Below are positions 3,435-52,885 of a stretch of DNA of 64,000 nt, in pieces. Source of the DNA: a virus. The notes under the pieces were generated by a model. It ran no database searches, was not told the origin of the DNA, and was given only the letters and a program-made list of their open reading frames with translations. Position 1 is the first letter of the stretch; each line of letters opens with the position of its first letter. The stretch is from positions 32,031 through 96,030 of the IMG/VR virus record IMGVR_UViG_3300037119_005846; one strand, given 5' to 3'. The position numbers and the translations under genes were made by a program.

Positions 3435-3665
3435 ATGACACAGACAGAGAAGCCCGATCCCTACCCGATGGAGATCAGCCCCGAGCTCAAGGCCTTCCTC
3501 TACGGCGACGTGCTCGTCCGACGCGAGCTGGACGCCGACGGCGACCCGGCTCCCGACGACGAGCCCGAGCTCAAGGCCGGCGAGCTGTACGACGACGACG
3601 CCCTCCACGACCGCTTCAACGCCTACCGCCCCTACGAGCGCGACGACTGGAACGAGCGTGACTGA
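3435..3665 (+). CDS. Acidic hypothetical protein (leaderless, starts MTQT)
   Basis: Start reassigned from 3399 to the ATG at the predicted transcription start. Confidence 0.75.
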   Translation: MTQTEKPDPYPMEISPELKAFLYGDVLVRRELDADGDPAPDDEPELKAGELYDDDALHDRFNAYRPYERDDWNERD

Positions 3666-3789
3666 CAAGACCCAGACCCAGACCCGCGAGCCGATCCGCC
3701 CGCCGGCCACTCCCACCGCGACGCGGTACGCTAGCAACCACAACTGGTCGCGCCGCGGTGACAACACCAAGTACAAGACCAAGAAGTGA
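3658..3789 (+). CDS. Small basic hypothetical protein
   Basis: 43-aa ORF filling the gap and overlapping the upstream stop. Confidence 0.45.
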   Translation: MTDKTQTQTREPIRPPATPTATRYASNHNWSRRGDNTKYKTKK

Positions 3790-3803
3790 AGTAAGGACCC
3801 GAC

Positions 3804-4097
3804 ATGACGACCAACGCATCCCACTCAGCATGCGGCGCACACCCGAACCATCACCACCCCTGGAAGCTCGCCCAGTACGTCTCGCCCGGCGACGTCGTCA
3901 GCGACGAAGATCACCTGTACTGGACGGTGACGGCGACCGCCCATGCGCACTACCCGTCGTCCGGCATCGTCCTCGAGCTCGCGGGCGCCGAGGACGGCGT
4001 CAACGCCGACCGCCGAACCTCCGTCTTCTACGGCGCCCACGAGCGAGTGACGCTGGTCGCCGACCTCGACCCCGGCACCCCCGAGGCGACGCCGTGA
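3804..4097 (+). CDS. Hypothetical protein (small beta-barrel-like)
   Basis: AAGGA RBS, 97 aa, phage-like codon usage. Confidence 0.7.
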   Translation: MTTNASHSACGAHPNHHHPWKLAQYVSPGDVVSDEDHLYWTVTATAHAHYPSSGIVLELAGAEDGVNADRRTSVFYGAHERVTLVADLDPGTPEATP

Positions 4098-4201
4098 GCG
4101 GCTCTCACATCGGCACCCGCGGTATGTGCGTATGGGAGGAGGACACGCCCATCCCAGACGTGGTGGCCGTGTTGGCCCGGTATCGGGAGGCGAGGAAGTG
4201 A
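4094..4201 (+). CDS. Small hypothetical protein, paralogue of 5003-5101
   Basis: WEEDTPIPDVVAVLARYREARK, translationally coupled at both ends. Confidence 0.6.
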   Translation: MSGSHIGTRGMCVWEEDTPIPDVVAVLARYREARK

Positions 4202-4482
4202 TGGACGCCGTAGACGTACTCAACGGGATCATCGCCACGAAGGACGCCGAGATCAAACAGCTACGGGACGACCTGGCCCGCATGTACCGGCTGCGCCGCG
4301 AGCAGCCACCAATCACCCCGGAACAGCGGGCCGTCCTCGACGCCGCGATCGGACTGCACGAATGCTCCGGGGCGGACGACACCGACGAGGCCGACGATCC
4401 GCGTCTCGCCGAATGGACCGACCGTCTCTACGCAGCTATCGACGCCCTCCGGGCCGCCACCCCGAAACACGACGACCGATGA
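4201..4482 (+). CDS. Hypothetical coiled-coil protein, N-terminus paralogous to 5101-5346
   Basis: MDAVDVLNGIIATKDAEI, TGATG coupling, GAGG RBS. Confidence 0.75.
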   Translation: MDAVDVLNGIIATKDAEIKQLRDDLARMYRLRREQPPITPEQRAVLDAAIGLHECSGADDTDEADDPRLAEWTDRLYAAIDALRAATPKHDDR

Positions 4483-4667: not shown

Positions 4668-4687
4668 CACCGCCCGCACCACGACCC

Positions 4688-4712
4688 TGTATAATCGACT
4701 CAGACACAGACA
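4688..4712 (+). promoter_or_regulatory. GTATAAT promoter followed by a CAGACACAGACA leader
   Basis: TATAAT at 4690-4695, -35 poor, GACACAGAC at 4703. Confidence 0.65.
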
Positions 4713-4731
4713 AGAAAGGTAGGTCGACATC

Positions 4732-7327: not shown

Positions 7328-7354
7328 CAACACAGACATGAAGGAGACACAGTC

Positions 7355-7748: not shown

Positions 7749-7777
7749 TGGACAAACACAACACAATGCTGTATAAT
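7749..7777 (+). promoter_or_regulatory. Class I promoter, leaderless
   Basis: TGGACA-17bp-TATAAT, ATG at +7 (7784). Confidence 0.85.
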
Positions 7778-7783
7778 GGCGCT

Positions 7784-7810
7784 ATGACAACAGACTTGAC
7801 AATCCGATGA
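7784..7810 (+). CDS. 8-aa leaderless minigene (MTTDLTIR)
   Basis: ATG at the predicted TSS, stop overlaps the next ATG (ATGA). Confidence 0.5.
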   Translation: MTTDLTIR

Positions 7811-8350: not shown

Positions 8351-8379
8351 TGGACAATTACAACATGATGTTGTATAAT
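8351..8379 (+). promoter_or_regulatory. Class I promoter followed by a CAGAC-rich leader
   Basis: TGGACA-17bp-TATAAT, then CAGACCTCAGACACAGACCACAGACC. Confidence 0.85.
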
Positions 8380-8426
8380 AAACGCAGACCTCAGACACAG
8401 ACCACAGACCCAGGGAGAGAGAAATC

Positions 8427-8462
8427 ATGACGATCAACGCCAACACCGAAGGCGACGACTGA
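8427..8462 (+). CDS. 11-aa minigene (MTINANTEGDD)
   Basis: Follows a GGGAG RBS, and its stop overlaps the next ATG (TGATG). Confidence 0.45.
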   Translation: MTINANTEGDD

Positions 8463-14969: not shown

Positions 14970-17218
14970 ATACTCTCACCGCGGCCGTCGCGTACGACGT
15001 CACCGATTCCGCGGTCAAGGCGGTCGAGAGCGCGTCACGCGTCGCCGACGAGAAGACCGCGAGCACTGCCGCGCTAGCGCTGGCGATCGCGATGGACTCC
15101 GAGAACGAAGAGTCTGCGAGAGTGGCGGTCCTTAAAGATCCGCGCATCGCTCGCCTCAGTCTCGAGGCGGCGCAGGCGATCAACGACGCCGCCGAGCTCG
15201 CGGCCTGGCATCCGTCGCCGGATACGGATGCCGCGGTCAGCGGCAGTGTCAAAGATGCACTGCGAACACGTCGAACCGATGCCGAGCTCGCTGACACGAT
15301 CCGGAGCACGGTCGCTGACGCAGCAGCGGCTAGACGCTCGACGGTTGAGACCGATGATGAGACGCCCGACGCCGAGTCACGCCGTCACTGGAGTGATGCC
15401 GCCGGGCGCACTGCCGCGACACGGCTGGCAGCTGAGCGAGTCGTTGAGTCCATGCCGGTCGTGGAAGAAGCCGCCGGTGTCTCGCTTCACAAGCTCTGGC
15501 TGACTCAGGCAGACAGCCGCGTCCGGTCAAGTCATCGTCATCTCCAGGGTAAGACCGTCGAAGCTGACAAGCCGTTCTGGCGCGAGCTCGGCACCGACAA
15601 GCAGCTGCGCTTCCCGGGCGACCCAGAGGCGCCGCTGGATCAGACCGTGAACTGCCGGTGCTTCTTGTGGCTCGTCCCCGCGGACCAGGCGGCGGCCGCC
15701 GAGGAAACGTTCCAGATCAGTGACGATGACTACGCACTCGCTGCGTCTGTTAGTCGCCATCCGTCATGCGGGCTGCTACACGGAAATGCCGCGCTGATGA
15801 CAGTCGATGAATTCGACGGTGCGGCCGACATCCTGTACGGTCTGACAGCAGCGACCGAGCGCAAGTACGACGAGAGCAAGCACAAGCGCGACAAGGGCGG
15901 CAAGTTCTCGAAGCATGCCGGCCAGCAGGGCGGCACAGTTCACGAGCACAAGCGCTTCGATCGCAAGAAGTGGCTCGCCGAGGGTGGCTGGGACAGGGTC
16001 AGAGCCAAGTACGGTCTCGGCAAGGGCAAGGGCAAGGGCAAGGGCTCTGGCTCCGGCTCTGGCTCCGGCTCCGGCGGCGGAGACAGCGGCAGTGGAGACG
16101 ACGTCGACGCGGGCAAGGCCTTTGACGACGCCGCCGAGCGTGCTCGCAAGCGCTTCGAGACAATACAGAAGGCTCTTCAAGATCGCAGAGATGAGATCGA
16201 GAACACTCGAGCATCGAACGAGGCTGATAGAAGGCAGCTTCAGGCGCAGGCCGACCTCGAGCAGATCACGCGGCGCGAGGGCGAGGACGCCGCGATGAGG
16301 AAGCGGGAGCAGATGGTCCGAGACGTTGAGCAAGATCTGCGCAAGCACCAGAGTGACGTCGAGCGGTCGCAGAACTTGATCCTCGGCATGCGCCTCCGCG
16401 GCGAGCTGCCGGACGTGATCGAGGCCGAGCGTCAGAAGCTCCTCCGGCTCAAGGGTGAGACGACCGAGCTGGTCAATCTCAGTCGCTCGCTCGGCACTCC
16501 CGACCAGGTGCGCGACCTGCGCGATCGCGTCCGCTCGAGTCGCCGCATTCAGGACGTCGGCACGCGGAACAATCGCGCGGACCTGGATCGTCGGATCAGA
16601 CTCGCGCAGCGCCGGCAAGATCAGGGCCTGCGAAACACTGAGCGCTCCGCGTCGCAGGACTACCAGAATCAGGTACGTGACTTGCGCGCTCGAGCGAACG
16701 AGGCGAGGAAGCAGGCGGCGGAGGCGAAGAGGGGTCGCCGCGCCTCGCTGGTTGGCGGCGGACACGCGGACTCACCGCAGTCATGTGTCATCGCGCTCAT
16801 TCCGAAGGGCCACAAGGAGATCGAGTACGAGTCCGGCGAGAAGGCTCCGGCACATCTGACGCTGGCATACCTCAGTGACGGCAGCGACAACATCGAGGAT
16901 GACTTTGACGCGATCGACGCGGCCGTTGCGCGCTTCGCTGCGAGTCGTCAGCCGTTCACCGTGACTGTCGCCGGTCGAGCTAACCTTGGCGAAGATGGAG
17001 ATGACGTCATCATCGTTGAGGCGTCGGAGCTCGCTGAGGCGCGGGCCTGGGCGGAAAGTGAGCCGGGCATCAGCGAACGCTGCGCTGCCAGTGATCACCC
17101 GCACTGGATTCCGCACATGACTGGCGTCGACGGTGACTACGGCGACGAGGTCGAGTTCGATCGCATCGGCGCGTGGTACGGCGACGACAAGCGAGAGTAC
17201 CCGCTCGGCGGCGGGTAA
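14966..17218 (+). CDS. MuF-like minor head protein fused to an HPR-like tag, coiled coil and C-terminal 2H phosphoesterase
   Basis: K.W....D.RVR.SH, L.FPGDP, VNCRC (MuF), then YDESKHKRDKGGKF, then two HxT motifs (AHLTLAYL, PHMT). Confidence 0.85.
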   Translation: MNTLTAAVAYDVTDSAVKAVESASRVADEKTASTAALALAIAMDSENEESARVAVLKDPRIARLSLEAAQAINDAAELAAWHPSPDTDAAVSGSVKDALRTRRTDAELADTIRSTVADAAAARRSTVETDDETPDAESRRHWSDAAGRTAATRLAAERVVESMPVVEEAAGVSLHKLWLTQADSRVRSSHRHLQGKTVEADKPFWRELGTDKQLRFPGDPEAPLDQTVNCRCFLWLVPADQAAAAEETFQISDDDYALAASVSRHPSCGLLHGNAALMTVDEFDGAADILYGLTAATERKYDESKHKRDKGGKFSKHAGQQGGTVHEHKRFDRKKWLAEGGWDRVRAKYGLGKGKGKGKGSGSGSGSGSGGGDSGSGDDVDAGKAFDDAAERARKRFETIQKALQDRRDEIENTRASNEADRRQLQAQADLEQITRREGEDAAMRKREQMVRDVEQDLRKHQSDVERSQNLILGMRLRGELPDVIEAERQKLLRLKGETTELVNLSRSLGTPDQVRDLRDRVRSSRRIQDVGTRNNRADLDRRIRLAQRRQDQGLRNTERSASQDYQNQVRDLRARANEARKQAAEAKRGRRASLVGGGHADSPQSCVIALIPKGHKEIEYESGEKAPAHLTLAYLSDGSDNIEDDFDAIDAAVARFAASRQPFTVTVAGRANLGEDGDDVIIVEASELAEARAWAESEPGISERCAASDHPHWIPHMTGVDGDYGDEVEFDRIGAWYGDDKREYPLGGG

Positions 17219-17227
17219 GATCGAAGC

Positions 17228-18025
17228 ATGAGCGCCGTCGAGAGCGAGCAGACCACGCCGCCGGCAGAAGACAAGCGAGTCAGCGCCGACGGCGACGACC
17301 GCCGTGATCGCGCCGTCAGCTCGTCCGGCTTCTACGCGTGGCTCGCCAAGTACGCCGACGATCGGTACAGCCCCCTGAAGGAGAAGCTCGACCGCAAGGC
17401 GCAGAGAGCTGTGCTCGGTGCGACGTTCAGTCGCGAGAAGATCGCCGCCTATCTCGAGTACGACGAAGACCTCATGACTCTGCTGACCAACGCGGAGATG
17501 GAGTGGCGCGCCGACATGGTCGCGAAGGACGGCCTCAAGGCGCACATGGAGGTCGACACCAGTCCACGCTATGACTTCCGCGATCCGACGATGAGACGCG
17601 CCCAGACATGTCGGTATCGCGGTGCGAGTGGCGTGTGCGGGAAGGGCGCCGTTCCGGGCACGGTTCGATGCGGCGAGCACGGCGGCGAGCTGGTCGATGA
17701 GGTGACGCGGCGAGCGATCCTCATGACGAGTTACTTGCAGATTGTCGAGGCCAGCGGTGTCGCCGTCGAGGCGCTGGTCGATGTCGCGCAGCACAGTCGC
17801 AACGACATCGCTCGAGTTGCCGCCGCGAAGGAGATTCTCGACCGCGCCGGCCTCACGGCAGATCTTCAGGTCACGGTGCACATCGAGGGAGACGAGCGCA
17901 ACGAGCGCATCTCGCGACTGCGGGACCGGCTCGACTCGATGCAGAAGGGACTTCAGAGCCGAGCGATCGACGCTGTCGCTCGCGAGGAGAACATCGTCGA
18001 CGCGGAGGTCGTCGCCGCGGGGTAA
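17228..18025 (+). CDS. Probable terminase small subunit
   Basis: C..C...RC..HGG zinc motif, AVEALVD...RVAAAKEILDRAG, located near the portal. Confidence 0.55.
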   Translation: MSAVESEQTTPPAEDKRVSADGDDRRDRAVSSSGFYAWLAKYADDRYSPLKEKLDRKAQRAVLGATFSREKIAAYLEYDEDLMTLLTNAEMEWRADMVAKDGLKAHMEVDTSPRYDFRDPTMRRAQTCRYRGASGVCGKGAVPGTVRCGEHGGELVDEVTRRAILMTSYLQIVEASGVAVEALVDVAQHSRNDIARVAAAKEILDRAGLTADLQVTVHIEGDERNERISRLRDRLDSMQKGLQSRAIDAVAREENIVDAEVVAAG

Positions 18026-18064
18026 GATAGGCAAGTCACATCAGACTCAGACAGGAGACAAGTC

Positions 18065-20489: not shown

Positions 20490-20511
20490 CCGACCGGCCA
20501 CGAGGCCCGAG

Positions 20512-20540
20512 TGGCATTTCTATACATCACGTGGTATAAT
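20512..20540 (+). promoter_or_regulatory. Class I promoter, leaderless
   Basis: TGGCAT-17bp-TATAAT, ATG at +7 (20547). Confidence 0.85.
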
Positions 20541-20546: not shown

Positions 20547-20843
20547 ATGACACAGACTTCAGACAAGGCGCTGGCGCCAGACCAGGTGGTCACGATCGCC
20601 GGCACCGTCGGATTCTTCAAGGTCAAGGAGATCCCGGACCACGGCCGGTTCGTCGTACTGTACGGTGGCAACGTCCAGAGGCGCGGCGGTATCAAGGCGT
20701 CGAGTCGTACGGTGCCGCCGGCGAAGGTCGAGCCGATCACTAGCTCGGCGACTCTGAAGCGAGCGAACGCCACACTGCATGCCATCGCCGAGGCGATGGA
20801 AGCCGCACCGCACCCGCACTACAAGAAGGCCGGCGCCAAGTAG
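20547..20843 (+). CDS. Hypothetical protein (leaderless, starts MTQT)
   Basis: Start reassigned to the ATG at the predicted TSS. Confidence 0.75.
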   Translation: MTQTSDKALAPDQVVTIAGTVGFFKVKEIPDHGRFVVLYGGNVQRRGGIKASSRTVPPAKVEPITSSATLKRANATLHAIAEAMEAAPHPHYKKAGAK

Positions 20844-20874: not shown

Positions 20875-21087
20875 ATGAACGACCTGCGCAAGAGCAAGTT
20901 CGAGACCAAGGTAGCAGCGGCTGAGGCCGCCGTTGCCGCCGGCGCCAAGCTGTACGTCGGTGGACGACGTACCGTCGCCACTGCAGAGGAAGAAGGCGAG
21001 ACACGGGTGTATAACCTCGGCGGCGGTGAGGGCGCCTACCAGTGGCGCTGGCTGACCGCGCTGGATGATCCGAGTGGCATTCGGTAA
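20875..21087 (+). CDS. Hypothetical protein
   Basis: 70 aa. Confidence 0.6.
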   Translation: MNDLRKSKFETKVAAAEAAVAAGAKLYVGGRRTVATAEEEGETRVYNLGGGEGAYQWRWLTALDDPSGIR

Positions 21088-21155
21088 CATCACAATGTAT
21101 AATGACATCAGCCAGCCGGCGAACCCGGCTGGCACCAGGACTTCAGACACAGACA
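21075..21155 (+). promoter_or_regulatory. Class I promoter with a 5' hairpin and GACACAGAC leader
   Basis: TGGCAT-17bp-TATAAT (21098), 9-bp stem GCCAGCCGG/CCGGCTGGC at 21111-21133, motif at 21146. Confidence 0.8.
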
Positions 21156-23814: not shown

Positions 23815-23842
23815 TTGACCGCAGACACAGACAGGAACACAG

Positions 23843-24418: not shown

Positions 24419-24471
24419 CCGCGAAGTTCATAGTATAGTATAGTAAGTGACACAGACAGGAAGGATGACGG

Positions 24472-27412: not shown

Positions 27413-27459
27413 GTACACGGTAGTGTAGACGATATCGACACAGACAGGAAGATGATGAA

Positions 27460-29562: not shown

Positions 29563-29614
29563 TGGCTTTTGCTTACATCGCGTTGTATAATGGTTCCAGA
29601 CACAGACCCAGACC
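29563..29614 (+). promoter_or_regulatory. Class I promoter followed by a CAGAC leader
   Basis: TGGCTT-17bp-TATAAT (29586), then CAGACACAGACCCAGACC. Confidence 0.8.
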
Positions 29615-31326: not shown

Positions 31327-31355
31327 TGGCCATTGTGTTCACAATGGTGTATAAT
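31327..31355 (+). promoter_or_regulatory. Class I promoter, leaderless
   Basis: TGGCCA-17bp-TATAAT, ATG at +7 (31362). Confidence 0.85.
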
Positions 31356-31361
31356 GAGGAC

Positions 31362-33233
31362 ATGACAGACATGAAGACGACAAGGACGGTGAACCCGCAG
31401 CGTGACGCTCTGCAGGTCGCCCTGAACGCGGAGATCCGGTACTCCCCGCTGCGGGTGCCCAGCGCGGTCGTCCACATCGAGGACGACGAGTCGCAGCCGA
31501 ACCCGCCGGCGGTGGCGTGGTACGAGCCGAAGACCGGGGACATCCACATCCACATCGACCGCGCCAAGATCAACCCCACCGACGCCAACTCGCGCGGCCG
31601 CAAGGACTACGCCGTCACCCGCGGCCTACTGGTCCACGAGGCCTCGCACGCCAAGAACAGCGCCTGGCTGACCACCCTCTGGCACACCGGCATCAAGCCG
31701 TCGGTGATGCGGACTCTGACGATGTTCGAGGAGATGCGGGTCGAGGCACGGGCGGTCAACGCCGACCCGGACGAGTCCCGCATCAACCTCCGGGCGTCGC
31801 TGCCGCTGGCGATGGGTGACATCCGCGACAACCCGCCGGTGACCCGCTACGACGCGGCCAACAGCTGGGGCCTCATCTACGGCCGCTCGCTGACGACGGT
31901 CGTCAGCCACATCGAGCTCCAGTGGCTCGATGACGCGGCTCGCACCATCCTCGGCGACGACGACGTCGATCAGCTCGGCGACATCCTTCAGGAGGCGATC
32001 GGCGCGAGCCACCGCGACGCTGCCCGACTCATCCAGCTCGCCGAGGAGTGGATCGACTTGGTCGGCGCTCCGCCGGAGGGCGAGGGTGGCGGCGGCTGCG
32101 GTCATGGCGAGCCGACCGAGACCGAGCCGGAGGGCGAGAAGATCGAGAAGGGTGAGCCCTCCAAGGATGCCGCGAAGGGTGAAGAGGACGAGGACGACGG
32201 TGACGCCAAGGCGACAGCCGACGGCGCGGCCGCCGAGGACGAGTCCGACGGCAAGCCATCGCGTGGCAAGTTCAACAGCGAGGACGATGATGAGGACGAA
32301 GAGTCCGCGGAATCCGAGAGCGCGCCGATCAGCAAGGACGCCGGCGAGCTGATCAAGGAGATGCTCGACCAGCTCCTCGATGACGTCGAGATCAACTGGT
32401 CGAAGGTCAGGGTCGACATGGCCGACCCGATGGACATGGCCAAGCGCGTGTTCGGCATCCACCGCAGCGACAAGGACATCACGAAGTCGGCACCGACCGC
32501 GGTCCACCACGCCGCAGTTGCCAAGACGGCGAAGGCGCTGGAGGAGCTGGTCGTCCCCGCGATCAGCAAGGTCAGCGTCGCCGCTGAGCTTCCGCCGGGA
32601 CGGCTGCGGACCCGCGAGGCGGTCCGTGCTTCTGCTGAGCGTGCGCAGGGTCGGATGGTGACGGCTCGTCCCTGGGAGGCGACGAAGCGCCGCCACACGA
32701 CCTCACGCCCGATCGTGGTCGGCATCGCCACCGACGTCAGCGGCTCGATGGGATGGGCCGAGCAGATGGTCGCGGACTTCGCCTACACCTGGACCAACGC
32801 CGGTCGCCGGATCGGAGCCCGGACCGCGGCAGTCACGTTCGGTGATACCGCTCAGGCGATCGCCGGTCCCGGTGAGGTCCTGTCCGAGGTCCCGCGCCGC
32901 AGCGCCAACGGTGGCAAGGAGCGGGCCGACCACGCGCTGGCCGCCTTGGACGGGGTGCTCAAGCTGAGCCACAATAACGGCGCCGCCAAGTTGCTCGTCA
33001 TCGTCAGTGATGGTGTCCTCGTGATCTCCAACGAGATGGACCGAGTCCGCCAGCGGCTAGCCGACTTCAAGCTCGGTGGGACGACCGTCATCTGGGTGAC
33101 GCCGGAGCGGTCGTACGTCAAGGGTCTCGTCAAGCTCGGCCTCGTCGAGATCGTTGAGGTCTCGATGGGACGCGGCTCCTTCGACCAGGTCCAGGAGGAG
33201 GTGCTGAAGAAGATCAGCCAGCTCAGCCACTGA
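31362..33233 (+). CDS. CobT-like metallopeptidase-vWA protein (MoxR partner)
   Basis: HEASH..., EEMRVE, acidic linker, MIDAS motif DVSGSM, VIVSDG. Confidence 0.85.
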   Translation: MTDMKTTRTVNPQRDALQVALNAEIRYSPLRVPSAVVHIEDDESQPNPPAVAWYEPKTGDIHIHIDRAKINPTDANSRGRKDYAVTRGLLVHEASHAKNSAWLTTLWHTGIKPSVMRTLTMFEEMRVEARAVNADPDESRINLRASLPLAMGDIRDNPPVTRYDAANSWGLIYGRSLTTVVSHIELQWLDDAARTILGDDDVDQLGDILQEAIGASHRDAARLIQLAEEWIDLVGAPPEGEGGGGCGHGEPTETEPEGEKIEKGEPSKDAAKGEEDEDDGDAKATADGAAAEDESDGKPSRGKFNSEDDDEDEESAESESAPISKDAGELIKEMLDQLLDDVEINWSKVRVDMADPMDMAKRVFGIHRSDKDITKSAPTAVHHAAVAKTAKALEELVVPAISKVSVAAELPPGRLRTREAVRASAERAQGRMVTARPWEATKRRHTTSRPIVVGIATDVSGSMGWAEQMVADFAYTWTNAGRRIGARTAAVTFGDTAQAIAGPGEVLSEVPRRSANGGKERADHALAALDGVLKLSHNNGAAKLLVIVSDGVLVISNEMDRVRQRLADFKLGGTTVIWVTPERSYVKGLVKLGLVEIVEVSMGRGSFDQVQEEVLKKISQLSH

Positions 33234-33284
33234 GCAACCACACAGACCAAGACCCCCTCAGACACAGACAACAAGGAGGATCCC

Positions 33285-33990: not shown

Positions 33991-33991
33991 T
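33963..33991 (+). promoter_or_regulatory. Class I promoter, leaderless
   Basis: TGGCAA-17bp-TATAAT, ATG at +7 (33998). Confidence 0.85.
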
Positions 33992-33997: not shown

Positions 33998-34612
33998 ATG
34001 ACAGAGACACAGACCACCACGCCGGCGGCGGCGAACCCTCTGACCGCCGCGCAGGCCGACTTCATCGGCGGCCTCCTCGACGAGCGCGAGGGCTTCACCC
34101 CCGGATTCGAAGTTCGAGTCCGCGAGGGCATCGCCACCTGGGCGATCGACAAGACCAAGGCGAGCGAGATCATCGGCTGGCTGCTCGAGCGCCCAAAGAG
34201 GGCGAAGGCGACCGGCCCCACCTACACCGCGATCCTCGCCGATGACAAGCTCGACATCCCCGCCGGCCACTACGCCGCGACCGTTCCCGGCTCGCACGAG
34301 CCGCTCTCGTTCTTCCGGGTCGACCGGCCGACCGAGGGCAAGTGGGCGGGCGCGACGTTTGTCAAGCACATCGTCGGTGGACACCCGGACTACCCCGTCA
34401 AGGGCGCGGCTGCGCAGGAGGCGTTGAAGGCGATCAACGACGCCGGCATCGTCGCCAGCGCCGTCAGGTACGCCGCTGAGTTCCGTCGCTGCCTTCACTG
34501 TAACTTGCAACTGACCGACCCGATCAGCCGCGCGATCGGTATCGGCCCTCACTGCCGCAAGGCTTACGCCGGCACCGCACTGATCGCCGCCGTCCTGGCG
34601 GTCGGTCGGTGA
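33998..34612 (+). CDS. DUF6011-domain protein
   Basis: C..C...LTDP.SRA.GIGP.C. Confidence 0.8.
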   Translation: MTETQTTTPAAANPLTAAQADFIGGLLDEREGFTPGFEVRVREGIATWAIDKTKASEIIGWLLERPKRAKATGPTYTAILADDKLDIPAGHYAATVPGSHEPLSFFRVDRPTEGKWAGATFVKHIVGGHPDYPVKGAAAQEALKAINDAGIVASAVRYAAEFRRCLHCNLQLTDPISRAIGIGPHCRKAYAGTALIAAVLAVGR

Positions 34613-38317: not shown

Positions 38318-38436
38318 CGAGGTATAGTCTCGGCAGACAGCCAGACGCTAGACGCAGACGAGGACGACAGACCGACCATCTACTGATCGCACAGGTCGTC
38401 CATGTCCAATCATGACGAGAAAGAGAGTCAGACGCG

Positions 38437-44297: not shown

Positions 44298-45583
44298 GTA
44301 GCACCTACGGTGAAGGACCGTATGGCGTTGAGCCATACGGCGGTACCGACGAAGATGGTGATGGCTTCGTTGACACATTTGAGGATGTGATCCTCAGTGG
44401 TCGACCAGAGGACTGGCCCGCGCCAGGTGAAATGCACTTTCGCTTGTCAGACGCGACACTAGGCAATCTTGATCTGTCGTGTGACACGGGTTACATCGTG
44501 CGCAGCTATGACTTGGGATTCCCAGAGGTGCGCGAGGTCAGCTATGCCGCGACTCTGGACGACGGCACATTTGATGTCACTGCATTCGTCGGCGCTCGAT
44601 CAGTGTCGCTCGACATCGTTCTTCGTGCCACGGACGTCAGCGGTCACCCTCTTCCATCCGGGCCAAGTGAGACACGAATGCGAGATGACCTGCTGAAGTA
44701 TCTCAGTCCCGCTCTTCGCCCCGTCCTCATGTTCTCGGAGCATGGTGACGATCGCGTCCGCGCTATTGTGCTGCGCGGGTCAGATGCGCCGATCAGCGTG
44801 TCGCAGCCGCAGTTCAACAGTGTCAGCGTGTCGTGGCGTGCTCCCCGAGGGATGATCGAGAACACGGATGTGCACCGCGCGTACTTCACCTTCGATGAGC
44901 TGCTGAGTGCGGAATACACAATTTTGACCGAGAACAAGGGAACAGTCCCCGCCCACTGGCAGCTTCAGATCTCTGGCGATCTCGAGAGCCCCCACATCAG
45001 CATTGGTGATCTGCACCTCTGGCTCAACTATCACATCGAGCCAGCCGGCGTTATCACGATCGACTCGCGCACGAGGACAGTTCGCATCGGCAACGTTCCT
45101 GTGGGCTATCGATACCTAGACGACAAGAGTGACTGGTTCCGTATCCCGCCGGGCTTTCAAGAGATTCACTTCTCTCATGACGCCGTGCCACGACTTGGTC
45201 TTCCCTACGCCTACTGGCAGCCTGATGCTTCGTCTGTGTCAGCGTCACACACCGCATGGGCCGCGATCGCGATAAGCAACGTGACCGCGACGCACTTGCC
45301 GAGCGCGTCGTCGTTTGGGAGTCTCGCCGCGCTCAAGGCGAACCCAACATCTGGCGATGGTCACTACGGCGGTCCGGCGTTTGGGCCTGGCAATTATGTC
45401 GTTCTTGGCGACACTTCGCAGGCGTGGTACAACAGTGCGATCTGGATAGCCGGCTACATGCCGTACGACAATCCTTCACCGATCGGCGCGCCGCCGTGGA
45501 TCTGGACGCCCTCGGTCGATGACGGTACCGGCGAGCCGGTCGTTGGCGAAGTGACACTTACTTATCGCGAGCTCTACTTGTGA
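44294..45583 (+). CDS. Distal tail (Dit-like) protein with a C-terminal insertion
   Basis: Follows the TMP, with DLGFPEVREV, GAR.V, N.G.VP, W..IPPG motifs. Confidence 0.75.
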   Translation: MSSTYGEGPYGVEPYGGTDEDGDGFVDTFEDVILSGRPEDWPAPGEMHFRLSDATLGNLDLSCDTGYIVRSYDLGFPEVREVSYAATLDDGTFDVTAFVGARSVSLDIVLRATDVSGHPLPSGPSETRMRDDLLKYLSPALRPVLMFSEHGDDRVRAIVLRGSDAPISVSQPQFNSVSVSWRAPRGMIENTDVHRAYFTFDELLSAEYTILTENKGTVPAHWQLQISGDLESPHISIGDLHLWLNYHIEPAGVITIDSRTRTVRIGNVPVGYRYLDDKSDWFRIPPGFQEIHFSHDAVPRLGLPYAYWQPDASSVSASHTAWAAIAISNVTATHLPSASSFGSLAALKANPTSGDGHYGGPAFGPGNYVVLGDTSQAWYNSAIWIAGYMPYDNPSPIGAPPWIWTPSVDDGTGEPVVGEVTLTYRELYL

Positions 45584-46815: not shown

Positions 46816-46843
46816 TTTCAAGTGTTGAGGTAGTATCCGCGCC

Positions 46844-47701
46844 ATGAGAGCAATTGTCTCCGCTCCGGCACTTCGAACGCACGAGCATGGTCTTGTCAGT
46901 GTCGGCAACGTCATCCAGCCGGGCGACGACCGGTGGTACGACGGTATCAACTTCACCTCACGCGGCTGCGACGTGATCTTTGGTCACGACACAGGCTGCT
47001 GGTCGCCGCGCGGCAACAAGAGCAGTCAGGACTGCAAGGCCCTCGGAGTGTTCACGCCGTATGTCATCGAGACCTCGCTCAGTTGGATGACTGGCGATCT
47101 GGCCGCCGATCCGAAGGCGATGGTCAGCGAGACACTGGAGGTGGGAACGTCTGCCATTCTCGAGCGAATGATCGAGATGAACCTCGTCGATGTCGCCGAT
47201 GCGACGCCGCTGACGAGCCCGACAGTCGTCGGTGCGGTCAGCGCGACCGGCATTCGCGGGCGCGTCGGCGTCGGCGGCGACGTCAGTGTCAAGCTCGAAG
47301 ACTCAGTCAGCATGGGAGTCGCGAGCACGCCGGCGCGAGCGGCGCTCGGCTACATCGAGGCAAAGCTGCTCGACGCGAGCGATCACACCGGCGGCGCCGG
47401 TGTCATCTACGTCAGCCCGCTGTACGTGCCCTTCCTGCGTGACGCGCTCACGTACGCGGACGGCCAGCTGTACACGACGGCCACGGGTAGCAAGGTCGTC
47501 GTCGGCAACTTCGCCGCCAACGCGATCTACGGTCACGTCGGCGACGTCGACGTCTACCTCGGCGACATCATCATCAACGAGTTCGTGCAGAGAGGGGCAA
47601 ACGAATACTTCGTCCAGGCCGAGCGGGTGGTCGCGGCCGTATGGAACCCGTGCGGCGCGTTCCGACAGACCATCGACAACACGCTGACGTTCGCCTCGTA
47701 G
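46844..47701 (+). CDS. Probable capsid pentamer / minor capsid protein
   Basis: P....HGL.SV, RW..GI, paired Cys, F.P..I, G..V.VG, AER pattern as in actinophage pentamer proteins. Confidence 0.55.
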   Translation: MRAIVSAPALRTHEHGLVSVGNVIQPGDDRWYDGINFTSRGCDVIFGHDTGCWSPRGNKSSQDCKALGVFTPYVIETSLSWMTGDLAADPKAMVSETLEVGTSAILERMIEMNLVDVADATPLTSPTVVGAVSATGIRGRVGVGGDVSVKLEDSVSMGVASTPARAALGYIEAKLLDASDHTGGAGVIYVSPLYVPFLRDALTYADGQLYTTATGSKVVVGNFAANAIYGHVGDVDVYLGDIIINEFVQRGANEYFVQAERVVAAVWNPCGAFRQTIDNTLTFAS

Positions 47702-47774
47702 CGGGCGTCTGGGCGGCTCGTCTGACAGCCGCGGTGGTAAAGTAGAACTACAGACGAATGAAGGAGACAGAGAC

Positions 47775-48262: not shown

Positions 48263-49129
48263 ATGTGGATCATTCTCGAGGGAGTGGACGGCAGTGGCAA
48301 ATCTACACTCTGCGACATCATTGCCGAGTCGATCCCCGACATCCCTGACGTCATACGCACGCACCTGGGTGCGCCCAAGTCTGCCGCCAGCGCACTGATC
48401 GAGTGCACTGACGACGAGCCGTTCGGCACGTACCGACCTGGCGGCGGTGCTCACATCATCAGCGACCGTCACCACTGGGGCTGCCCGGTGTACGGACCTG
48501 TCCTGCGGCCGGAGCGTGACACGGACGGCTACGGCGACTTCAACAAGGCCGGCTGGCGATACTGTGAGCTGTTCATCGCGTCCCGGGGTGGTCGGACGAT
48601 CTACGTCGACGTCAGCGCCGAGACCGCGCAGGAGCGCATACGGCATCGAGGCGACGCGAACTACGACGTTGAGACGCTGATCGCCATCACGCCGGAGCTG
48701 CTCGACCGCTACCACTGGTTGCTGACCGAGGCGCCGACGCTGGGGCTCCACATCGTCGAGCCGAGCATGGCTGAGCTGACGGTCCTTGCGCGCGACATCA
48801 TCGAGCTCGGCTCGATCCACGAGGACGAGGCCGCGCCGCTGGCGCACTACCCGGACTACATCGGTAAGCCGCAGCCCAAGAAGCTGCTCGTCTGTGAGCC
48901 GACCAAGGATGCGCGGCTAGACATTCTTGCTAGCTTCAGTGACGATGAGTGGGCCGATGTCGGCTTTTGCTCGAGCGCGCACACGCGTGACTCGCTGCAC
49001 GAGCTAGCGTCGACGCTGGATTACCCGCAGATCGTCGGTGTTGGTCGTCTGCCGAGCGACGCGGACGCATTTGTGTTCGACATGGCTGGTAGGGTTGAGT
49101 CAGCCCGCGACGGCGCAGTGGCTATCTGA
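48263..49129 (+). CDS. Thymidylate-kinase-like dNMP kinase with a C-terminal extension
   Basis: IILEGVDGSGKST, DRHH, R.RGD. Confidence 0.85.
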   Translation: MWIILEGVDGSGKSTLCDIIAESIPDIPDVIRTHLGAPKSAASALIECTDDEPFGTYRPGGGAHIISDRHHWGCPVYGPVLRPERDTDGYGDFNKAGWRYCELFIASRGGRTIYVDVSAETAQERIRHRGDANYDVETLIAITPELLDRYHWLLTEAPTLGLHIVEPSMAELTVLARDIIELGSIHEDEAAPLAHYPDYIGKPQPKKLLVCEPTKDARLDILASFSDDEWADVGFCSSAHTRDSLHELASTLDYPQIVGVGRLPSDADAFVFDMAGRVESARDGAVAI

Positions 49130-49147
49130 CACAGACAGGAGACATAG

Positions 49148-50041: not shown

Positions 50042-50496
50042 GGCCGACGTGGGACGCGACGTGGATGGCGATGGCCGACAGCGTCGGGCAACGAAGCCTC
50101 TGCAGCCGCGCTAAGATCGGTTGTGTCATCGTCACTCGCGACAATCGCGTCGAGTCGGCGACATATAACGGCCCCGCACCGGCGTTCGATCACCACGAGC
50201 TCGAGTGCGACCACTGGTGCGAGCGGATGATGACCGGCGAGAAGGGCGTCAACTATGACACATGCCCGTCGACGCATGCGGAAGCTTCCGCGATCGCGCG
50301 AAGCGACTGGTCTCGACTTCAAGGCGCGACGTTGTACGTCAACGGATCATGCTGCCAGAATTGTTCGAAGCTGATCGCTCAGACAGGCATCAAGCGAGTA
50401 GTGCATCGCGTCACCGAGAGCATGGCGTATCGCCATCCCGAGCTGGTCGAGCAGTACTTGCGGAGCATGCTCATCGAGGTGAGACGTGCCACTTGA
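50038..50496 (+). CDS. dCMP deaminase
   Basis: RPTWD, RS.C, YNG.., HAE, C..C.K.I.Q.GI, GTGA-coupled to the TS homologue. Confidence 0.9.
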   Translation: MRPTWDATWMAMADSVGQRSLCSRAKIGCVIVTRDNRVESATYNGPAPAFDHHELECDHWCERMMTGEKGVNYDTCPSTHAEASAIARSDWSRLQGATLYVNGSCCQNCSKLIAQTGIKRVVHRVTESMAYRHPELVEQYLRSMLIEVRRAT

Positions 50497-52261
50497 CCCG
50501 ATGCAGGCGGTCAACTTCGTCGAGTCTGCCGACGACGTCGAGCGACTGTGGCGCTGGATGTCCGCTGAACCGCTGATCGCGACCGACACCGAGACGACCG
50601 GCTTCGGCCTGTACGACGATGACTTCAGCGTTCGGCTGATCCAGTTCGGCTCGCCCACTGAAGCGTGGGTGGTCGACTTCCAGCGCTGGCGCGGCCTGGT
50701 CGAGGACATCTTCATCCGCTACCAGGGTGACTGGGTGATGCACAACGCTCGCTTCGACGTTACGGGTCTGGCCCAGGAAGGGATCGCGGTCCCATGGCAT
50801 CGCCTTCACGACACCATGGTCCAGATGCGCCTGGCCCGCCCGACCGAGTCGGCGGCACTGAAGAACGCCGCCGACAAATACATCAGCCCGATCAGCAGCG
50901 ACGCTCAGAAGGTTCTTCGCGAGGCGTTCCGCCGCCAGGGATGGAACTGGGCGACAGTGCCGATCGACTTCCCGCCGTACCGCTTCTATGCAGCCCTGGA
51001 CCCGATCTTGACAGCCCGGCTGTATCACACCCCGGTCTGCCGCGAGGGCCGCGAGAGTGACGTCTACGCCCTCGAGATGCAAACCAAGGCGGTGTGCTCA
51101 CGCATGGAGCAGAACGGGCTCCGGATCGACCGCGACTTCTGCCGCCGCAATGCCGAGCGCCTGCGCGAGCACGCCGACGCGCTGAAGGCCGAGATGGACA
51201 GTCGTCACGGCATCAGCATCACCAGCGCCATGCAGCTGAGTCACTGGTTCGCCAGTCGGCCGGACGCGCTCGAGTGGATGACCAAGGAGACTCACAAGGG
51301 CAAGCTCAGCGTCGACAAGGAAGTGCTCCACGTGCTGGTCGGCCTCGGCGGCGAGGTCGGCGAGATGGCGTCTGCCGTGCTCGCGGTCCGCCGCGACGAG
51401 AAGATCGCCGGCTCGTACCTGGAGAACTTCTTGCGGATGTCCGACGGTGATGACTTGCTCCACCCGCAGATCGAGACGGTCGCCGCGCGCACCGGTCGCA
51501 TGTCGGTGAAAGAGCCCGGTCTTCAGACGCTGCCGAAGCCGACGGTTGAGAGTGATTACAGAATCGTCCGTGAGGGGATCGTGCCGTTCACCGACGACGA
51601 GGTGATCATCAGCTGCGACCTCGACCAAGTGGAGTTGCGCCTGGCCGCGATCATCTCCAAGGACCAGGGCCTGATCGACGCGTTCGCCGCGGCAGATGCC
51701 GGCGAAGACGACTTCTTCACACTCCTGGCTCAGGGTGTCTACCGCGACCCAACGATCACCAAGGATAACAAGCGTCGAGCCCGGATAAAGACATTTTCTT
51801 ACGCGTCACTTTACGGCGCGTCGGTGCGCAAGATGGCGATCAGCGCCGGCGTCCCTGTCGCGGAGATGCGCGACATCCGTGACGACATGGCGGCGCGGTT
51901 CCCGGGTTTCTTCAGCATGGGGCTCGAGGCGCAGCACCAGCTTCGTGAGAACGGCGGCTACATCAAGACACTGTTCGGCCGCAAGTTGCCGGTCGACGAG
52001 TCGAAAGAGTATGTGTCGACAAATTATTTGATACAGGGCAGCGCTGCCGACCTGCTCAAGCGGTCACTCGTCCTGATGGCGCAGGCCGGCCTCGAGGAGT
52101 ACATGCTCGTGCCCGTCCACGACGAGATCGTGCTGTCCGTGCCGCACGCCGACGCCGACGAGGTCGGCCGCGAGGTCGAGCGCGCGATGACGTCGACGGA
52201 GTTCAGCGTGCCGATCACCGCGTCGTCGTCGACCGGCGACAACTGGGCAGCGGCGAAATAG
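50486..52261 (+). CDS. polA: Family A DNA polymerase with 3'-5' exonuclease
   Basis: DTETTG, HNARFD, YAALD, RTGRMS, D..QVELR, K...YA.LYGA, IQGSAAD, VHDE. Confidence 0.95.
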   Translation: MPLDPMQAVNFVESADDVERLWRWMSAEPLIATDTETTGFGLYDDDFSVRLIQFGSPTEAWVVDFQRWRGLVEDIFIRYQGDWVMHNARFDVTGLAQEGIAVPWHRLHDTMVQMRLARPTESAALKNAADKYISPISSDAQKVLREAFRRQGWNWATVPIDFPPYRFYAALDPILTARLYHTPVCREGRESDVYALEMQTKAVCSRMEQNGLRIDRDFCRRNAERLREHADALKAEMDSRHGISITSAMQLSHWFASRPDALEWMTKETHKGKLSVDKEVLHVLVGLGGEVGEMASAVLAVRRDEKIAGSYLENFLRMSDGDDLLHPQIETVAARTGRMSVKEPGLQTLPKPTVESDYRIVREGIVPFTDDEVIISCDLDQVELRLAAIISKDQGLIDAFAAADAGEDDFFTLLAQGVYRDPTITKDNKRRARIKTFSYASLYGASVRKMAISAGVPVAEMRDIRDDMAARFPGFFSMGLEAQHQLRENGGYIKTLFGRKLPVDESKEYVSTNYLIQGSAADLLKRSLVLMAQAGLEEYMLVPVHDEIVLSVPHADADEVGREVERAMTSTEFSVPITASSSTGDNWAAAK

Positions 52262-52677
52262 TGATCATCCTCGGCGTCGACCCCGGCATGCACACCGGCG
52301 CGGTGATGCTCGACCTGCCGAGGATGCTGGTCACGTTCAGCGTCGAGATGAGCGTCGAGGACTTCTTCGACTCGGCCCGGCTGCTGGTCGGTCAGGCTAA
52401 CATCGTCGCGGTCGAGCAGTTCACGATCAGCATGCGGACCCTTCAGATGACTCGGCAGCCGGACGCGCTGCACATCATCGGCATCCTTCGGTTCCTCTGC
52501 CACGAGCGGTCGACGCCGATGCTGACGCAGCTGGTCGCAGACGCCAAGGCGTCGTTCAGCGACGAGACCCTGCGTGACCTCCACGTCTGGAGCTCGTCCA
52601 ACCATATTCGGGACGCGACGCGGCACGCGCTCCTGGCCGCGCGTAGGAGTGGTCATGACGTGCACGTCGATGTATAA
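52261..52677 (+). CDS. RuvC-like resolvase
   Basis: ILGVDPG..TG, VAVE.F, H.RDA.RH. Confidence 0.8.
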   Translation: MIILGVDPGMHTGAVMLDLPRMLVTFSVEMSVEDFFDSARLLVGQANIVAVEQFTISMRTLQMTRQPDALHIIGILRFLCHERSTPMLTQLVADAKASFSDETLRDLHVWSSSNHIRDATRHALLAARRSGHDVHVDV

Positions 52678-52678
52678 T
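52650..52678 (+). promoter_or_regulatory. Class I promoter, leaderless
   Basis: TGGTCA-17bp-TATAAT, ATG at +7 (52685). The RuvC stop TAA lies inside the -10 element. Confidence 0.85.
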
Positions 52679-52684
52679 GGCCTC

Positions 52685-52885
52685 ATGACACAGACAACGA
52701 CAGACACGCTCAACCGCGAGGCCAGCGAGCTCGGCCTTCTTCCCGGCAACTGGCCCGTGGAACTGACCATCGACGGCACCCGGTTCTACCGCGTCGCCGT
52801 CAAGCGTGACGCTGACTTCGACGTCGTCTACGTCCGCTACGAGGACAACAACGACACCCGCCAGCTGAGGGTCTGGAACGACTGA
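52685..52885 (+). CDS. Small hypothetical protein (leaderless, starts MTQT)
   Basis: EASELGL.PG.WP, coupled to the helicase gene. Confidence 0.75.
   Translation: MTQTTTDTLNREASELGLLPGNWPVELTIDGTRFYRVAVKRDADFDVVYVRYEDNNDTRQLRVWND

What the first reader, a model, noticed from the sequence alone, without database searches (positions are those of the whole stretch)
3437..52695. GACACAGAC start-associated motif at 14 or more genes, in UTRs or written into the first codons
Seen: exact GACACAGAC on the + strand at 3437, 4703, 8394, 20549, 21146, 23824, 24449, 27437, 29599, 30618, 33261, 34006, 49128 and 52687, with variants at 7330, 18042, 31364 and 38335. About 0.25 copies per strand are expected by chance at uniform composition. 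Every copy I found is at a gene start. In leadered genes it precedes the RBS. In leaderless genes it is coded in-frame, so unrelated proteins start MTQT or MTETQT. At 30618 and 49128 it overlaps the previous stop codon with no promoter nearby. It marks mainly non-structural genes. Established: start-associated sequences are known in some mycobacteriophages, but with a different sequence. Inference: an RNA-level signal, either a translational enhancer or the site of a phage or host RNA-binding protein.
Basis: partly seen in the sequence, partly recalled or inferred. Interest (0 to 1): 0.8.

Follow-up and report, generated by a model that had tools for sequence, protein, structure and literature searches.

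The report
Start-linked ACAGAC repeat in actinophage
An uncultured soil actinobacteriophage and its relatives place a short repeat (core GACACAGAC) at the 5' end of early transcripts and beside start codons, even inside the first codons of leaderless genes; it most likely controls translation initiation, like the unexplained start-associated sequences of mycobacteriophages.

Summary
GACACAGAC occurs 14 times on the + strand and once on the - strand of the window (shuffles: mean 1.19, max 4). The whole 96-kb virus record has 15 + and 1 -. All 15 + copies lie from about 35 nt before to 11 nt after a start codon.

- All 10 perfect TATAAT promoters (TGGnCA -35, 17-18 nt spacer) are followed by the motif or a variant. 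In most cases it starts at +2/+3 of the predicted transcript.
- The unit is a 6-nt repeat (ACAGAC, i.e. GAC-N3-GAC). Relatives expand it in tandem.
- Metagenomic relatives with about 53-55% identical helicases carry the same 9-mer only on the gene strand (18 + / 0 - in 84 kb), at equivalent junctions.

Five copies have no strong -10. Two of them overlap the upstream TGA stop. The motif can sit before the SD, between SD and AUG, or just after a 5'-terminal AUG, and it is predicted unpaired.

Best reading: an RNA-level element of translation-initiation regions of early and middle genes, acting as a C/A-rich enhancer (0.4). Rivals are an operator for a phage RNA-binding regulator (0.25) and a stoperator-like DNA site (0.2).

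No mechanism is shown. It is a new variant of a known kind.

The parts
3437..3445 (+). Motif coded in frame in a leaderless ORF (ATG 3435, 76 aa, MTQT...); TATAAT at 3423-3428, 8 nt upstream
4703..4711 (+). Motif at +2 of a leadered transcript (TATAAT 4690-4695, 7 nt upstream); ATG 4732, 20 nt downstream; overlapping variant GACTCAGAC at 4697
7329..7354 (+). Variants AACACAGAC and GACACAGTC flanking the SD of the gene at 7355
7772..7810 (+). Consensus promoter (TATAAT 7772-7777) followed by a leaderless 8-codon mini-ORF, ATGACAACAGAC... (variant motif)
8394..8402 (+). Motif in a leader GACCTCAGACACAGACCACAGACCC (TATAAT 8374-8379); SD and an 11-codon upstream ORF from 8427 whose stop overlaps the ATG at 8462 (TGATG) of the ParB-like gene
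18044..18052 (+). Variant GACTCAGAC directly before AGGAGAC and ATG 18065; TAAGAT -10-like hexamer upstream
20549..20557 (+). Motif in frame in a leaderless ORF (ATG 20547, 98 aa, MTQT...); promoter GTGGCA-18-TATAAT at 20511-20540
21146..21154 (+). Motif before the SD of the Ku-like gene (ATG 21170); promoter 21074-21103; a 9-bp 5'-terminal hairpin (21111-21133) lies between the predicted transcript start and the motif
23824..23832 (+). Motif abutting AGGA; ATG 23843; no strong -10 (at least 5 of 6 to TATAAT) within 60 nt upstream
24449..24457 (+). Motif 4 nt after TATAGT (24439-24444), abutting AGGAAGG; ATG 24472
27437..27445 (+). Motif abutting AGGAAG; GTG 27460 (Sak4-like annealing protein); only a weak TAGTGT hexamer upstream
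29599..29613 (+). Motif at +2 of the transcript (TATAAT 29586-29591) with overlapping GACCCAGAC; ATG 29630 (ATPase); same arrangement at the orthologue in L162 and L167
30618..30626 (+). Motif overlapping the TGA stop of the ATPase gene, abutting AGGA; ATG 30637; 17-nt gap, no promoter
31350..31370 (+). Consensus promoter (TATAAT 31350-31355) and leaderless ATGACAGAC variant starting the 623-aa AAA-ATPase-like gene
33239..33269 (+). CACACAGAC, GACCAAGAC and exact motif (33261) in one leader; SD AAGGAGG; ATG 33285; no strong -10 within 60 nt upstream
34000..34014 (+). GACAGAGAC plus exact motif in frame in a leaderless ORF (ATG 33998, 204 aa, MTETQT...); promoter 33962-33991
38335..38375 (+). 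AGAC-rich leader after TATAGT (38323-38328), includes GACGCAGAC 38351
47766..47774 (+). Variant GACAGAGAC between SD GAAGGAG and GTG 47775
49128..49136 (+). Motif overlapping the TGA stop of the upstream gene (a dNMP-kinase-like gene by synteny), abutting AGGAGACA; ATG 49148 (thymidylate-synthase-like); no promoter
52687..52695 (+). Motif in frame in a leaderless ORF (ATG 52685, 66 aa, MTQT...) between the RuvC-like and helicase genes; TATAAT 52673-52678; a second ACAGAC lies 6 nt downstream
45232..45240 (-). The only - strand copy, inside a tail-region ORF; taken as chance

Best explanation
GACACAGAC is the core of a transcribed, strand-specific cis-element made of GAC triplets at a 6-nt period (ACAGAC units). 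This phage clade places it in the translation-initiation regions of its early and middle (mostly non-structural) genes.

The proposed mechanism is at the RNA level. The element is an unpaired C/A-rich (ACA-containing) tract that raises ribosome loading. It does so whether it lies upstream of the SD, between SD and AUG, or immediately after a 5'-terminal AUG of a leaderless message. This would give phage early messages priority on host ribosomes.

Shown here:
- the enrichment and strand bias;
- the link to start codons;
- the link to the phage's consensus promoters;
- the in-frame coding in leaderless ORFs;
- conservation in relatives;
- predicted accessibility.

Inferred: that it acts on RNA, that it enhances rather than represses, and that the partner is the host ribosome. 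I put the umbrella claim, an RNA-level signal at initiation regions, at about 0.65, and the enhancer sub-mechanism at about 0.4.
For: 1. Enrichment and strand bias.
- Window: 14 + and 1 - against a shuffle mean of 1.19.
- Genome: 15 + and 1 -; with TGTATAAT it is the most over-represented word.
- ACAGAC occurs 42 times on + and 14 on -; 23 of the 42 lie in the 6.7% of the genome that is -45 to +15 from a start.

2. Position is flexible relative to the start, as reported for ACA and CA enhancers (PMC3879156).
- Upstream of the SD by 10-24 nt; "GACACAGACAGGA" recurs five times.
- Between SD and start in relatives and in variants (L164 4292, L167 307, window 47766).
- Positions +3 to +11 of leaderless ORFs.

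3. Four to five copies have no usable -10. Two overlap the upstream stop codon in 17-18 nt gaps. These cannot be promoter parts.

4. In the Ku-like gene leader, a 5' hairpin separates the predicted transcript start from the motif, which stays unpaired next to the SD. Position tracks the initiation region, not the transcript start.

5. The motif is more unpaired than controls: 0.60 against 0.40, Mann-Whitney p about 0.001.

6. Relatives expand it in tandem, for example GACACAGACACAGACACAGACACAGACATAGGAG. That is usual for single-strand or compositional elements and awkward for a 9-bp duplex site.

7. Conservation.
- 18 + and 0 - in 84 kb of loci whose helicases are 46-65% identical to the window's; all 18 copies lie in loci at about 47-55% identity, with GC 56-65%.
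- 2 + and 14 - in 1.66 Mb of more distant loci.
- Copies are kept at equivalent junctions while the flanks diverge.
Against: - The exact 9-mer dominates its variants (15 exact against about 10 start-linked one-mismatch copies). That points to a sequence-specific partner rather than a merely unstructured tract.
- Structural genes, presumably the most expressed, lack it. They use a different -10-only leaderless promoter type. A pure enhancer would be expected there too.
- 401 sampled Actinomycetota genomes show only background density. Hosts would therefore not seem to use this exact word, although the true host is unknown.
- No special complementarity to actinobacterial 16S rRNA.
- Seven of the nine window copies that follow a strong -10 start 4-8 nt after it, which also fits a promoter-proximal operator.
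- There are no expression data of any kind.
Confidence: 0.4

Rival explanations
1. The motif is an RNA operator for a phage-encoded RNA-binding regulator or nuclease. A protein made early would recognise spaced GAC triplets on the messages of one temporal class. It would then shut off, activate or cleave them together. The logic is that of T4 RegA or RegB, or of TRAP and HutP reading spaced triplets.
For: - Exact-sequence conservation within the genome and across relatives of different GC fits a co-inherited specific binder.
- The motif is restricted to genes served by the consensus (presumably early) promoters and is absent from structural genes.
- The sites overlap or adjoin the SD or AUG, where T4 RegA operators and RegB cuts lie (PMC3014915).
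- GAC-N3-GAC is the preferred spacing in start regions (23 against 6-14 for other spacers), and variation falls on positions 4-5.
- Relatives carry tandem arrays at a 6-nt period.
- Cellular Actinomycetota genomes show only background density.
Against: - No KH, S1, CSD, Sm/Hfq, TRAP or RegA family hit among the 46 mostly small window proteins scanned with Pfam.
- No such hit among the 20 scanned with PHROGs or the larger proteins scanned with Pfam.
- Copies 20-24 nt upstream of the AUG are far out for simple ribosome occlusion.
- No candidate co-occurring gene could be sought, because full contigs of relatives were not available.
Confidence: 0.25
2. The motif is a DNA-level operator or 'stoperator'. 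A phage DNA-binding protein would bind the asymmetric duplex site at +2 to +11 of early promoters and in short intergenic gaps. It would block initiation and elongation in an orientation-dependent way, as the L5 repressor does at its 13-bp stoperators.
For: - All 10 perfect TATAAT promoters are followed by the motif or a variant, and in most cases it starts 7-8 nt after the -10.
- Relatives show the same arrangement (TATAAT-N7-GACACAGAC).
- There are many copies in one orientation in short intergenic gaps, as described for L5 stoperators (cited in PMC3203893).
- One weak HTH_23 hit exists among the small proteins.
Against: - Overlapping tandem copies at 6-bp offsets cannot all be occupied on duplex DNA.
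- The distance from the -10 ranges from 4 to 42 nt.
- All but one of about 107 genes run one way, and no integrase or repressor was recognised among the proteins scanned. A lysogenic silencing system is therefore unlikely, though an early-shutoff repressor is not excluded.
- Direct abutment to the SD in six copies has no meaning in this model.
Confidence: 0.2
3. The motif has no function of its own. It would be the initially transcribed part of a promoter cassette that spread by duplication or recombination (compare the PeSL cassettes of T4-type phages), or a 5'-end, processing or stability tag.
For: - There is tight linkage with the repeated consensus promoter.
- Repeated regulatory cassettes that drive modular shuffling are known in T4-type phages (PMC2839356).
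- The GIY-YIG endonuclease gene in the left arm carries its own promoter plus motif.
Against: - Spacers and flanks of the promoters are not conserved, so the copies are not recent duplicates.
- Five copies lack a promoter.
- The same 9-mer persists in relatives with about 54% identical helicases, at equivalent junctions but in different gene contexts.
Confidence: 0.1

Closest known systems
Start-associated sequences (SAS) of Cluster K mycobacteriophages (PMC3203893)
   Same: A short asymmetric repeat in an actinobacteriophage, with 11-19 copies per genome (15 here). Nearly all copies are in one orientation, tied to start codons of mainly non-structural genes, sometimes overlapping the upstream stop, conserved across related phages in front of different gene families, and of unknown mechanism.
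   Different: - The sequence is unrelated. GGGATAGGAGCCC is not enriched here (12 matches with up to 3 mismatches against 17 expected).
- SAS contains the SD and sits 3-7 bp from the start. This motif lies upstream of the SD, or inside the first codons of leaderless ORFs.
- This motif is a 6-nt repeat unit that expands in tandem.
- It is coupled to consensus promoters.
- No ESAS-like inverted repeats were noticed.
C/A-rich (ACA, CA-repeat) translational enhancers of enterobacteria (PMC3879156, which also cites a report of CA repeats acting downstream of the AUG)
   Same: An ACA-containing, unstructured tract next to the SD. Activity is reported to be independent of exact position, and CA repeats also work downstream of the start codon. 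That matches the UTR and in-frame placements here.
   Different: - Those elements are degenerate and belong to the host. Here an exact 9-mer with G at a 6-nt period is repeated 15 times in a phage and is rare in sampled Actinomycetota genomes.
- No GU-rich antisense partner of the GcvB type was found.
- Activity is untested.
L5 / Cluster A stoperators
   Same: An asymmetric site with many copies, oriented with transcription, lying in short intergenic gaps and at an early promoter.
   Different: - 9 bp rather than 13 bp.
- Tandem overlapping copies occur.
- The motif abuts the SD and is coded inside ORFs.
- The phage looks lytic, and no repressor or integrase was recognised.
T4 RegA operators and RegB (GGAG) sites (PMC3014915)
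   Same: Phage early messages share a short unstructured signal at their initiation regions. A phage protein uses it to shut off that temporal class after transcription.
   Different: - No RegA or RegB homologue was detected.
- The sequence is unrelated: RegA sites are A/U-rich and RegB cuts at GGAG.
- T4 operators are poorly conserved, whereas this motif is exact.

Membership tests
Cluster K SAS | 13-bp consensus GGGATAGGAGCCC | tested here: not met
   12 matches with up to 3 mismatches against 17 expected, none at the motif sites
Cluster K SAS | About 11-19 copies, one orientation, immediately upstream of starts of non-structural genes | tested here: met
   15 + and 1 -; all + copies start-linked; mostly replication and early genes
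Cluster K SAS | Occupies the RBS position (contains AGGAG), 3-7 bp from the start codon | tested here: not met
   The motif ends 10-24 nt before the start and precedes the SD, or lies at +3 to +11 of leaderless ORFs
Cluster K SAS | About half the sites carry upstream 17-bp inverted repeats (ESAS) | not tested
   None noticed in the flanks; positions upstream of -1 carry little information; no systematic inverted-repeat search was run
C/A-rich / ACA translational enhancer | ACA or CA-repeat content in an unstructured tract | tested here: met
   The core contains ACACA and no U; mean unpaired probability 0.60 against 0.40 for controls
C/A-rich / ACA translational enhancer | Acts near the SD without strict spacing, and also downstream of the AUG | tested here: inconclusive
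   The placements fit (before the SD, between SD and AUG, after the AUG), but activity was not measured
C/A-rich / ACA translational enhancer | Raises translation initiation | not testable with these tools
   No RNA or ribosome data; no RNA run holds the sequence
L5-type stoperator | Many asymmetric sites oriented with transcription, in intergenic gaps and at the early promoter | tested here: met
L5-type stoperator | A cognate repressor and a temperate life style | tested here: inconclusive
   Only one weak HTH_23 hit (E 0.003); no integrase or repressor among the proteins scanned; not every ORF was scanned
T4 RegA / RegB regulon | A RegA or RegB homologue encoded by the phage | tested here: not met
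   No such Pfam or PHROG family among the proteins scanned; the left arm was only partly scanned

The most novel reading that the evidence does not exclude
The spaced GAC triplets (6-nt period, expandable in tandem) may be read by an as yet unrecognised, phage-encoded oligomeric RNA-binding protein. It would switch the whole early regulon off or on after transcription. This would be a RegA- or TRAP-like translational regulon in actinobacteriophages, one that also works on leaderless messages by binding inside their first codons.
Probability: 0.2. Interest if true: 0.8.

Novelty: new variant of a known kind. Interest (0 to 1): 0.55.

Why it matters
Short start-associated repeats in actinobacteriophages have been known since 2011, and no mechanism has been found for them. 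This case adds constraints that make the question testable.
- The same word works in 5' UTRs and as codons 2-4 of leaderless genes.
- It is a 6-nt repeat that expands in tandem.
- It is tied to one promoter class.
- It is conserved across an uncultured soil clade.

If it is an enhancer, it would be a natural, portable signal for strong translation of both leadered and leaderless messages in high-GC Actinobacteria, which would be useful for expression tools. If it is an operator, it defines a new phage post-transcriptional regulon. It also helps annotation. The motif and its promoter mark true (leaderless) starts that an ORF-based caller placed 36 nt too far upstream.

Tried and rejected
- **Pairing with 16S rRNA.** In 28 Actinomycetota 16S genes (the unpublished G049 was left out), 14 have a run of at least 7 nt, G-U allowed, that could pair with the motif. 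It lies in one region near position 1160 of the extracted sequences. Shuffled motifs do as well in 29% of trials. Rejected.
- **A host-wide signal.** In 401 sampled Actinomycetota genomes the 9-mer occurs at background level, similar to the reversed-pattern control. The one outlier, G292, is a 240-bp tandem array. This aggregate includes 15 unpublished genomes (G121, G002, G175, G392, G227, G049, G240, G019, G337, G149, G083, G269, G319, G344, G089). No individual result from them is used.
- **A phage antisense or GU-rich small RNA.** The only + strand complement is inside a tail ORF at 45232.
- **tRNA and Rfam families.** None in the window.
- **Literature search for the word itself.** Only primers and unrelated hits.
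- **IMG/VR scan for TATAAT-N6-ATGACACAGAC.** The 72 hits are chance, or one orthologous leaderless MTQT gene of an unrelated 48% GC phage family.
- **Named phage relatives.** These are distant (helicase 41% identical or less). DSL-LC01 has 3 + and 1 - copies in 129 kb, which is not enriched.
- **Host identification through genome contigs.** No informative hit.
- **Expression data.** No RNA holder listed; only soil DNA runs hold the sequence.

Full report
**1. What the record is**

The window is bases 32031-96030 of a 96,030-bp IMG/VR virus record, classed as linear and about 95% complete. It has 64% GC. A crude caller of my own places 106 of 107 genes on the + strand.

Named relatives are distant. 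The SNF2-type helicase (52885-54693) is 41% identical to that of Actinomycetia phage DSL-LC01 and 34-38% identical to those of Gordonia, Microbacterium and Arthrobacter phages. Around the helicase the genes for a thymidylate-synthase homologue, DNA polymerase A and a RuvC-like protein lie in the same order as in DSL-LC01. The DNA is held only by soil metagenome runs. This is therefore an uncultured soil actinobacteriophage with an unknown host.

**2.

- GACACAGAC occurs 14 times on + and once on - in the window. Shuffles give a mean of 1.19 and a maximum of 4.
- The whole genome has 15 + and 1 -. The extra copy is at genome 10925.
- With TGTATAAT it is the most over-represented word in the genome.
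- The information profile gives W-GACACAGAC-A with no conserved flanks.
- Every + copy is start-linked.
- Start windows cover about 6.7% of the genome, so 15 of 15 has a chance probability of about 2e-18.
- One-mismatch variants number 32 on + and 14 on -. The excess is at starts.
- The - strand copy at 45232 is inside an ORF.

**3.

The ten perfect (G)TATAAT hexamers of the genome are all on the + strand. Most belong to one promoter type: (G)GTGGnCA, a 17-18 nt spacer, TGTATAAT, and a G-rich 6-nt discriminator. All ten are followed by the motif or a variant.

- Eight carry the exact motif. In five of these it starts 7-8 nt after the hexamer.
- The predicted transcript then begins A-GACACAGAC (leadered: 4703, 29599) or AUGACACAGAC (leaderless: 3437, 20549, 52687).
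- The copy at 34006 reads AUGACAGAGACACAGAC.
- The other two promoters (7772, 31350) give AUGACAACAGAC and AUGACAGAC.
- A further leaderless copy at genome 10925 follows a TACACT -10 hexamer and opens a GIY-YIG endonuclease gene.

The leaderless ORFs start MTQT or MTETQT and share no other similarity. My ORF-based caller had placed these starts 36 nt upstream, at the GTG inside the -35 element.

Structural genes use a different signal, GGTAGTAT or GGTAAGAT, 6-7 nt before an ATG or GTG, and lack the motif.

**4. Copies without promoters**

Copies 23824, 30618, 33261 and 49128 have no TANNNT of useful quality upstream. Copy 27437 has only a weak one. Copies 30618 and 49128 overlap the upstream TGA in 17-18 nt gaps and run straight into AGGA(G). 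The 13-mer GACACAGACAGGA occurs five times.

In the Ku-like gene leader, a stable 9-bp 5' hairpin (-20 kcal/mol, z = -2.9) lies between the predicted transcript start and the motif. The motif stays unpaired next to the SD. The element therefore follows the initiation region, not the transcript start as such.

**5. Nature of the repeat**

- ACAGAC occurs 42 times on + and 14 on -. Of the 42, 23 lie in start windows.
- GACNNAGAC has 42 matches (31 on +, 11 on -) against 18 expected.
- In start regions GAC-N3-GAC is the preferred spacing: 23 against 6-14 for other spacers.
- Start-linked variants change mainly positions 4-5.
- Several leaders hold extra units, for example 8394 (GACCTCAGACACAGACCACAGACCC).

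**6. Relatives**

JGI metagenome and IMG/VR loci could be read.

- In 84 kb of loci with helicases 46-65% identical to the window's, the 9-mer occurs 18 times on the gene strand and never on the other. All 18 copies lie in L162, L163, L164, L167, L168 and L170 (about 47-55% identical, GC 56-65%).
- In 1.66 Mb of more distant loci the counts are 2 and 14.
- L242, an IMG/VR contig of the same group as L167 and L168 by its near-identical motif contexts, has six copies.

The contexts repeat those of the window:
- TATAAT-N7-GACACAGAC-aagagaaaggg...ATG;
- aaaTGACACAGACaggagacaccATG;
- tandem arrays such as ccaGACACAGACACAGACACAGACACAGACATAGGAGACAGACATG;
- copies between the SD and the ATG.

Equivalent junctions keep the element while the flanks and even the gene content change.
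- Upstream of the ATPase gene: own, L162 and L167.
- After the ATPase gene: own tcTGACACAGAC, L162 GACCCAGACATG, L163 TATAAT...GACAAAGAC.
- At the stop of the gene upstream of the thymidylate-synthase homologue: own tcTGACACAGAC, L163 tcTGACCCAGAC.
- At the RuvC-like to helicase junction: own promoter plus a leaderless MTQT ORF; L159 and L160 TATAGT...GACTCAGACaggagagagATG; L161 TACACT...ACAGACACATG; L163 a leaderless ATGAGCACAGAC ORF; L168 TATACT...GACACAGAC.

DSL-LC01 is not enriched (3 + and 1 - in 129 kb). The element is thus a conserved trait of one uncultured clade.

**7. Tests of mechanism**

- The motif is predicted to be more single-stranded than the equivalent positions of other genes or random sites: 0.60 against 0.40, p about 0.001.
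- Complementarity to 28 Actinomycetota 16S rRNAs is no better than for shuffled motifs.
- No phage antisense partner exists.
- There is no tRNA or Rfam hit.
- Pfam and PHROGs find no known RNA-binding, sigma, WhiB, RegA or TRAP family among about 75 proteins scanned. There is one weak HTH hit.
- The 9-mer is at background density in 401 sampled Actinomycetota genomes (that aggregate includes 15 unpublished genomes). The single outlier is a tandem array.
- No RNA data exist.

**8. Interpretation**

The following favour action on RNA at translation initiation:
- flexible placement around the start codon, including inside coding sequence;
- abutment to the SD;
- promoter-less copies that overlap stop codons;
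- tandem 6-nt expansion;
- accessibility.

Published work shows that ACA and C/A-rich tracts enhance initiation without strict spacing. The same paper cites a report that CA repeats act downstream of the AUG (PMC3879156). I therefore commit to an enhancer or standby tract that favours early phage messages (0.4).

Three facts count against a purely compositional enhancer. The word is exact, it is absent from structural genes, and it is rare in cellular genomes. These keep an operator for a phage RNA-binding regulator or nuclease well alive, with the logic of T4 RegA and RegB (PMC3014915) (0.25). The near-constant position after the -10 keeps a stoperator-like DNA site alive (0.2). A passive promoter-cassette remnant is unlikely (0.1).

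**9. Comparison and novelty**

The closest described thing is the Cluster K start-associated sequence (PMC3203893). The behaviour is the same. The sequence and the position differ, so membership fails. By sequence logic it resembles enterobacterial ACA enhancers.

It is a new variant of a known kind. Its main value is that it supplies sharper, testable constraints on a class of phage signals whose mechanism is still unknown.

Noticed in passing
window 1735-2136: Five spaced copies of (C)TGCCCATAT (one reads CCGACCATAT) lie in a 1.7-kb gene-free, repeat-rich stretch (window 1040-2717) just before the first early genes. This may be an origin, a genome-end region or another promoter class. CTGCCCATA/TGCCCATAT is among the most over-represented words in the genome.
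   Followed up: partly
window 46826-46846, 60412-60432, 17210-17230; genome 13731-13751: A second promoter-like class: GGTAGTAT or GGTAAGAT lies 6-7 nt before the ATG or GTG of structural and large late-looking genes, implying leaderless late messages. None carries the GACACAGAC motif.
   Followed up: partly
window 7784-7810 and 8427-8462: A consensus promoter drives a leaderless 8-codon mini-ORF (MTTDLTIR*). An 11-codon upstream ORF with a strong SD ends in TGATG, overlapping the start of the ParB-like gene, which suggests translational coupling.
   Followed up: no
window 21111-21133: A stable 9-bp hairpin lies at the predicted 5' end of the Ku-like gene transcript (-20 kcal/mol, z = -2.9). 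It may be a 5' stabiliser.
   Followed up: partly
L001-L072 (IMG/VR), e.g. L013, L025, L053: An unrelated phage family of about 48% GC has one conserved leaderless gene that reads TTGACA...TATAAT-N6-ATGACACAGACAAACACC (MTQTNTIRKKR...). The same opening word is used, but as a single orthologous gene rather than a dispersed motif.
   Followed up: partly
window 3140-3180: The ORF at 3057-3368 contains a GACCCG/GACGCG hexamer run that codes (DP)n(DA)n, a low-complexity acidic repeat.
   Followed up: no
G292:C3:2093260-2098377: One Actinomycetota genome carries the 9-mer about 44 times inside a 240-bp tandem array. This is unrelated to the phage motif.
   Followed up: partly
L243 13306 (IMGVR_UViG_3300015371_000319): A 64.5% GC viral contig has TAAACT...CCAGACAAGACACAGACAGGAGACACCACATG, the same leader design in a single copy. 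It may be a further distant relative.
   Followed up: no
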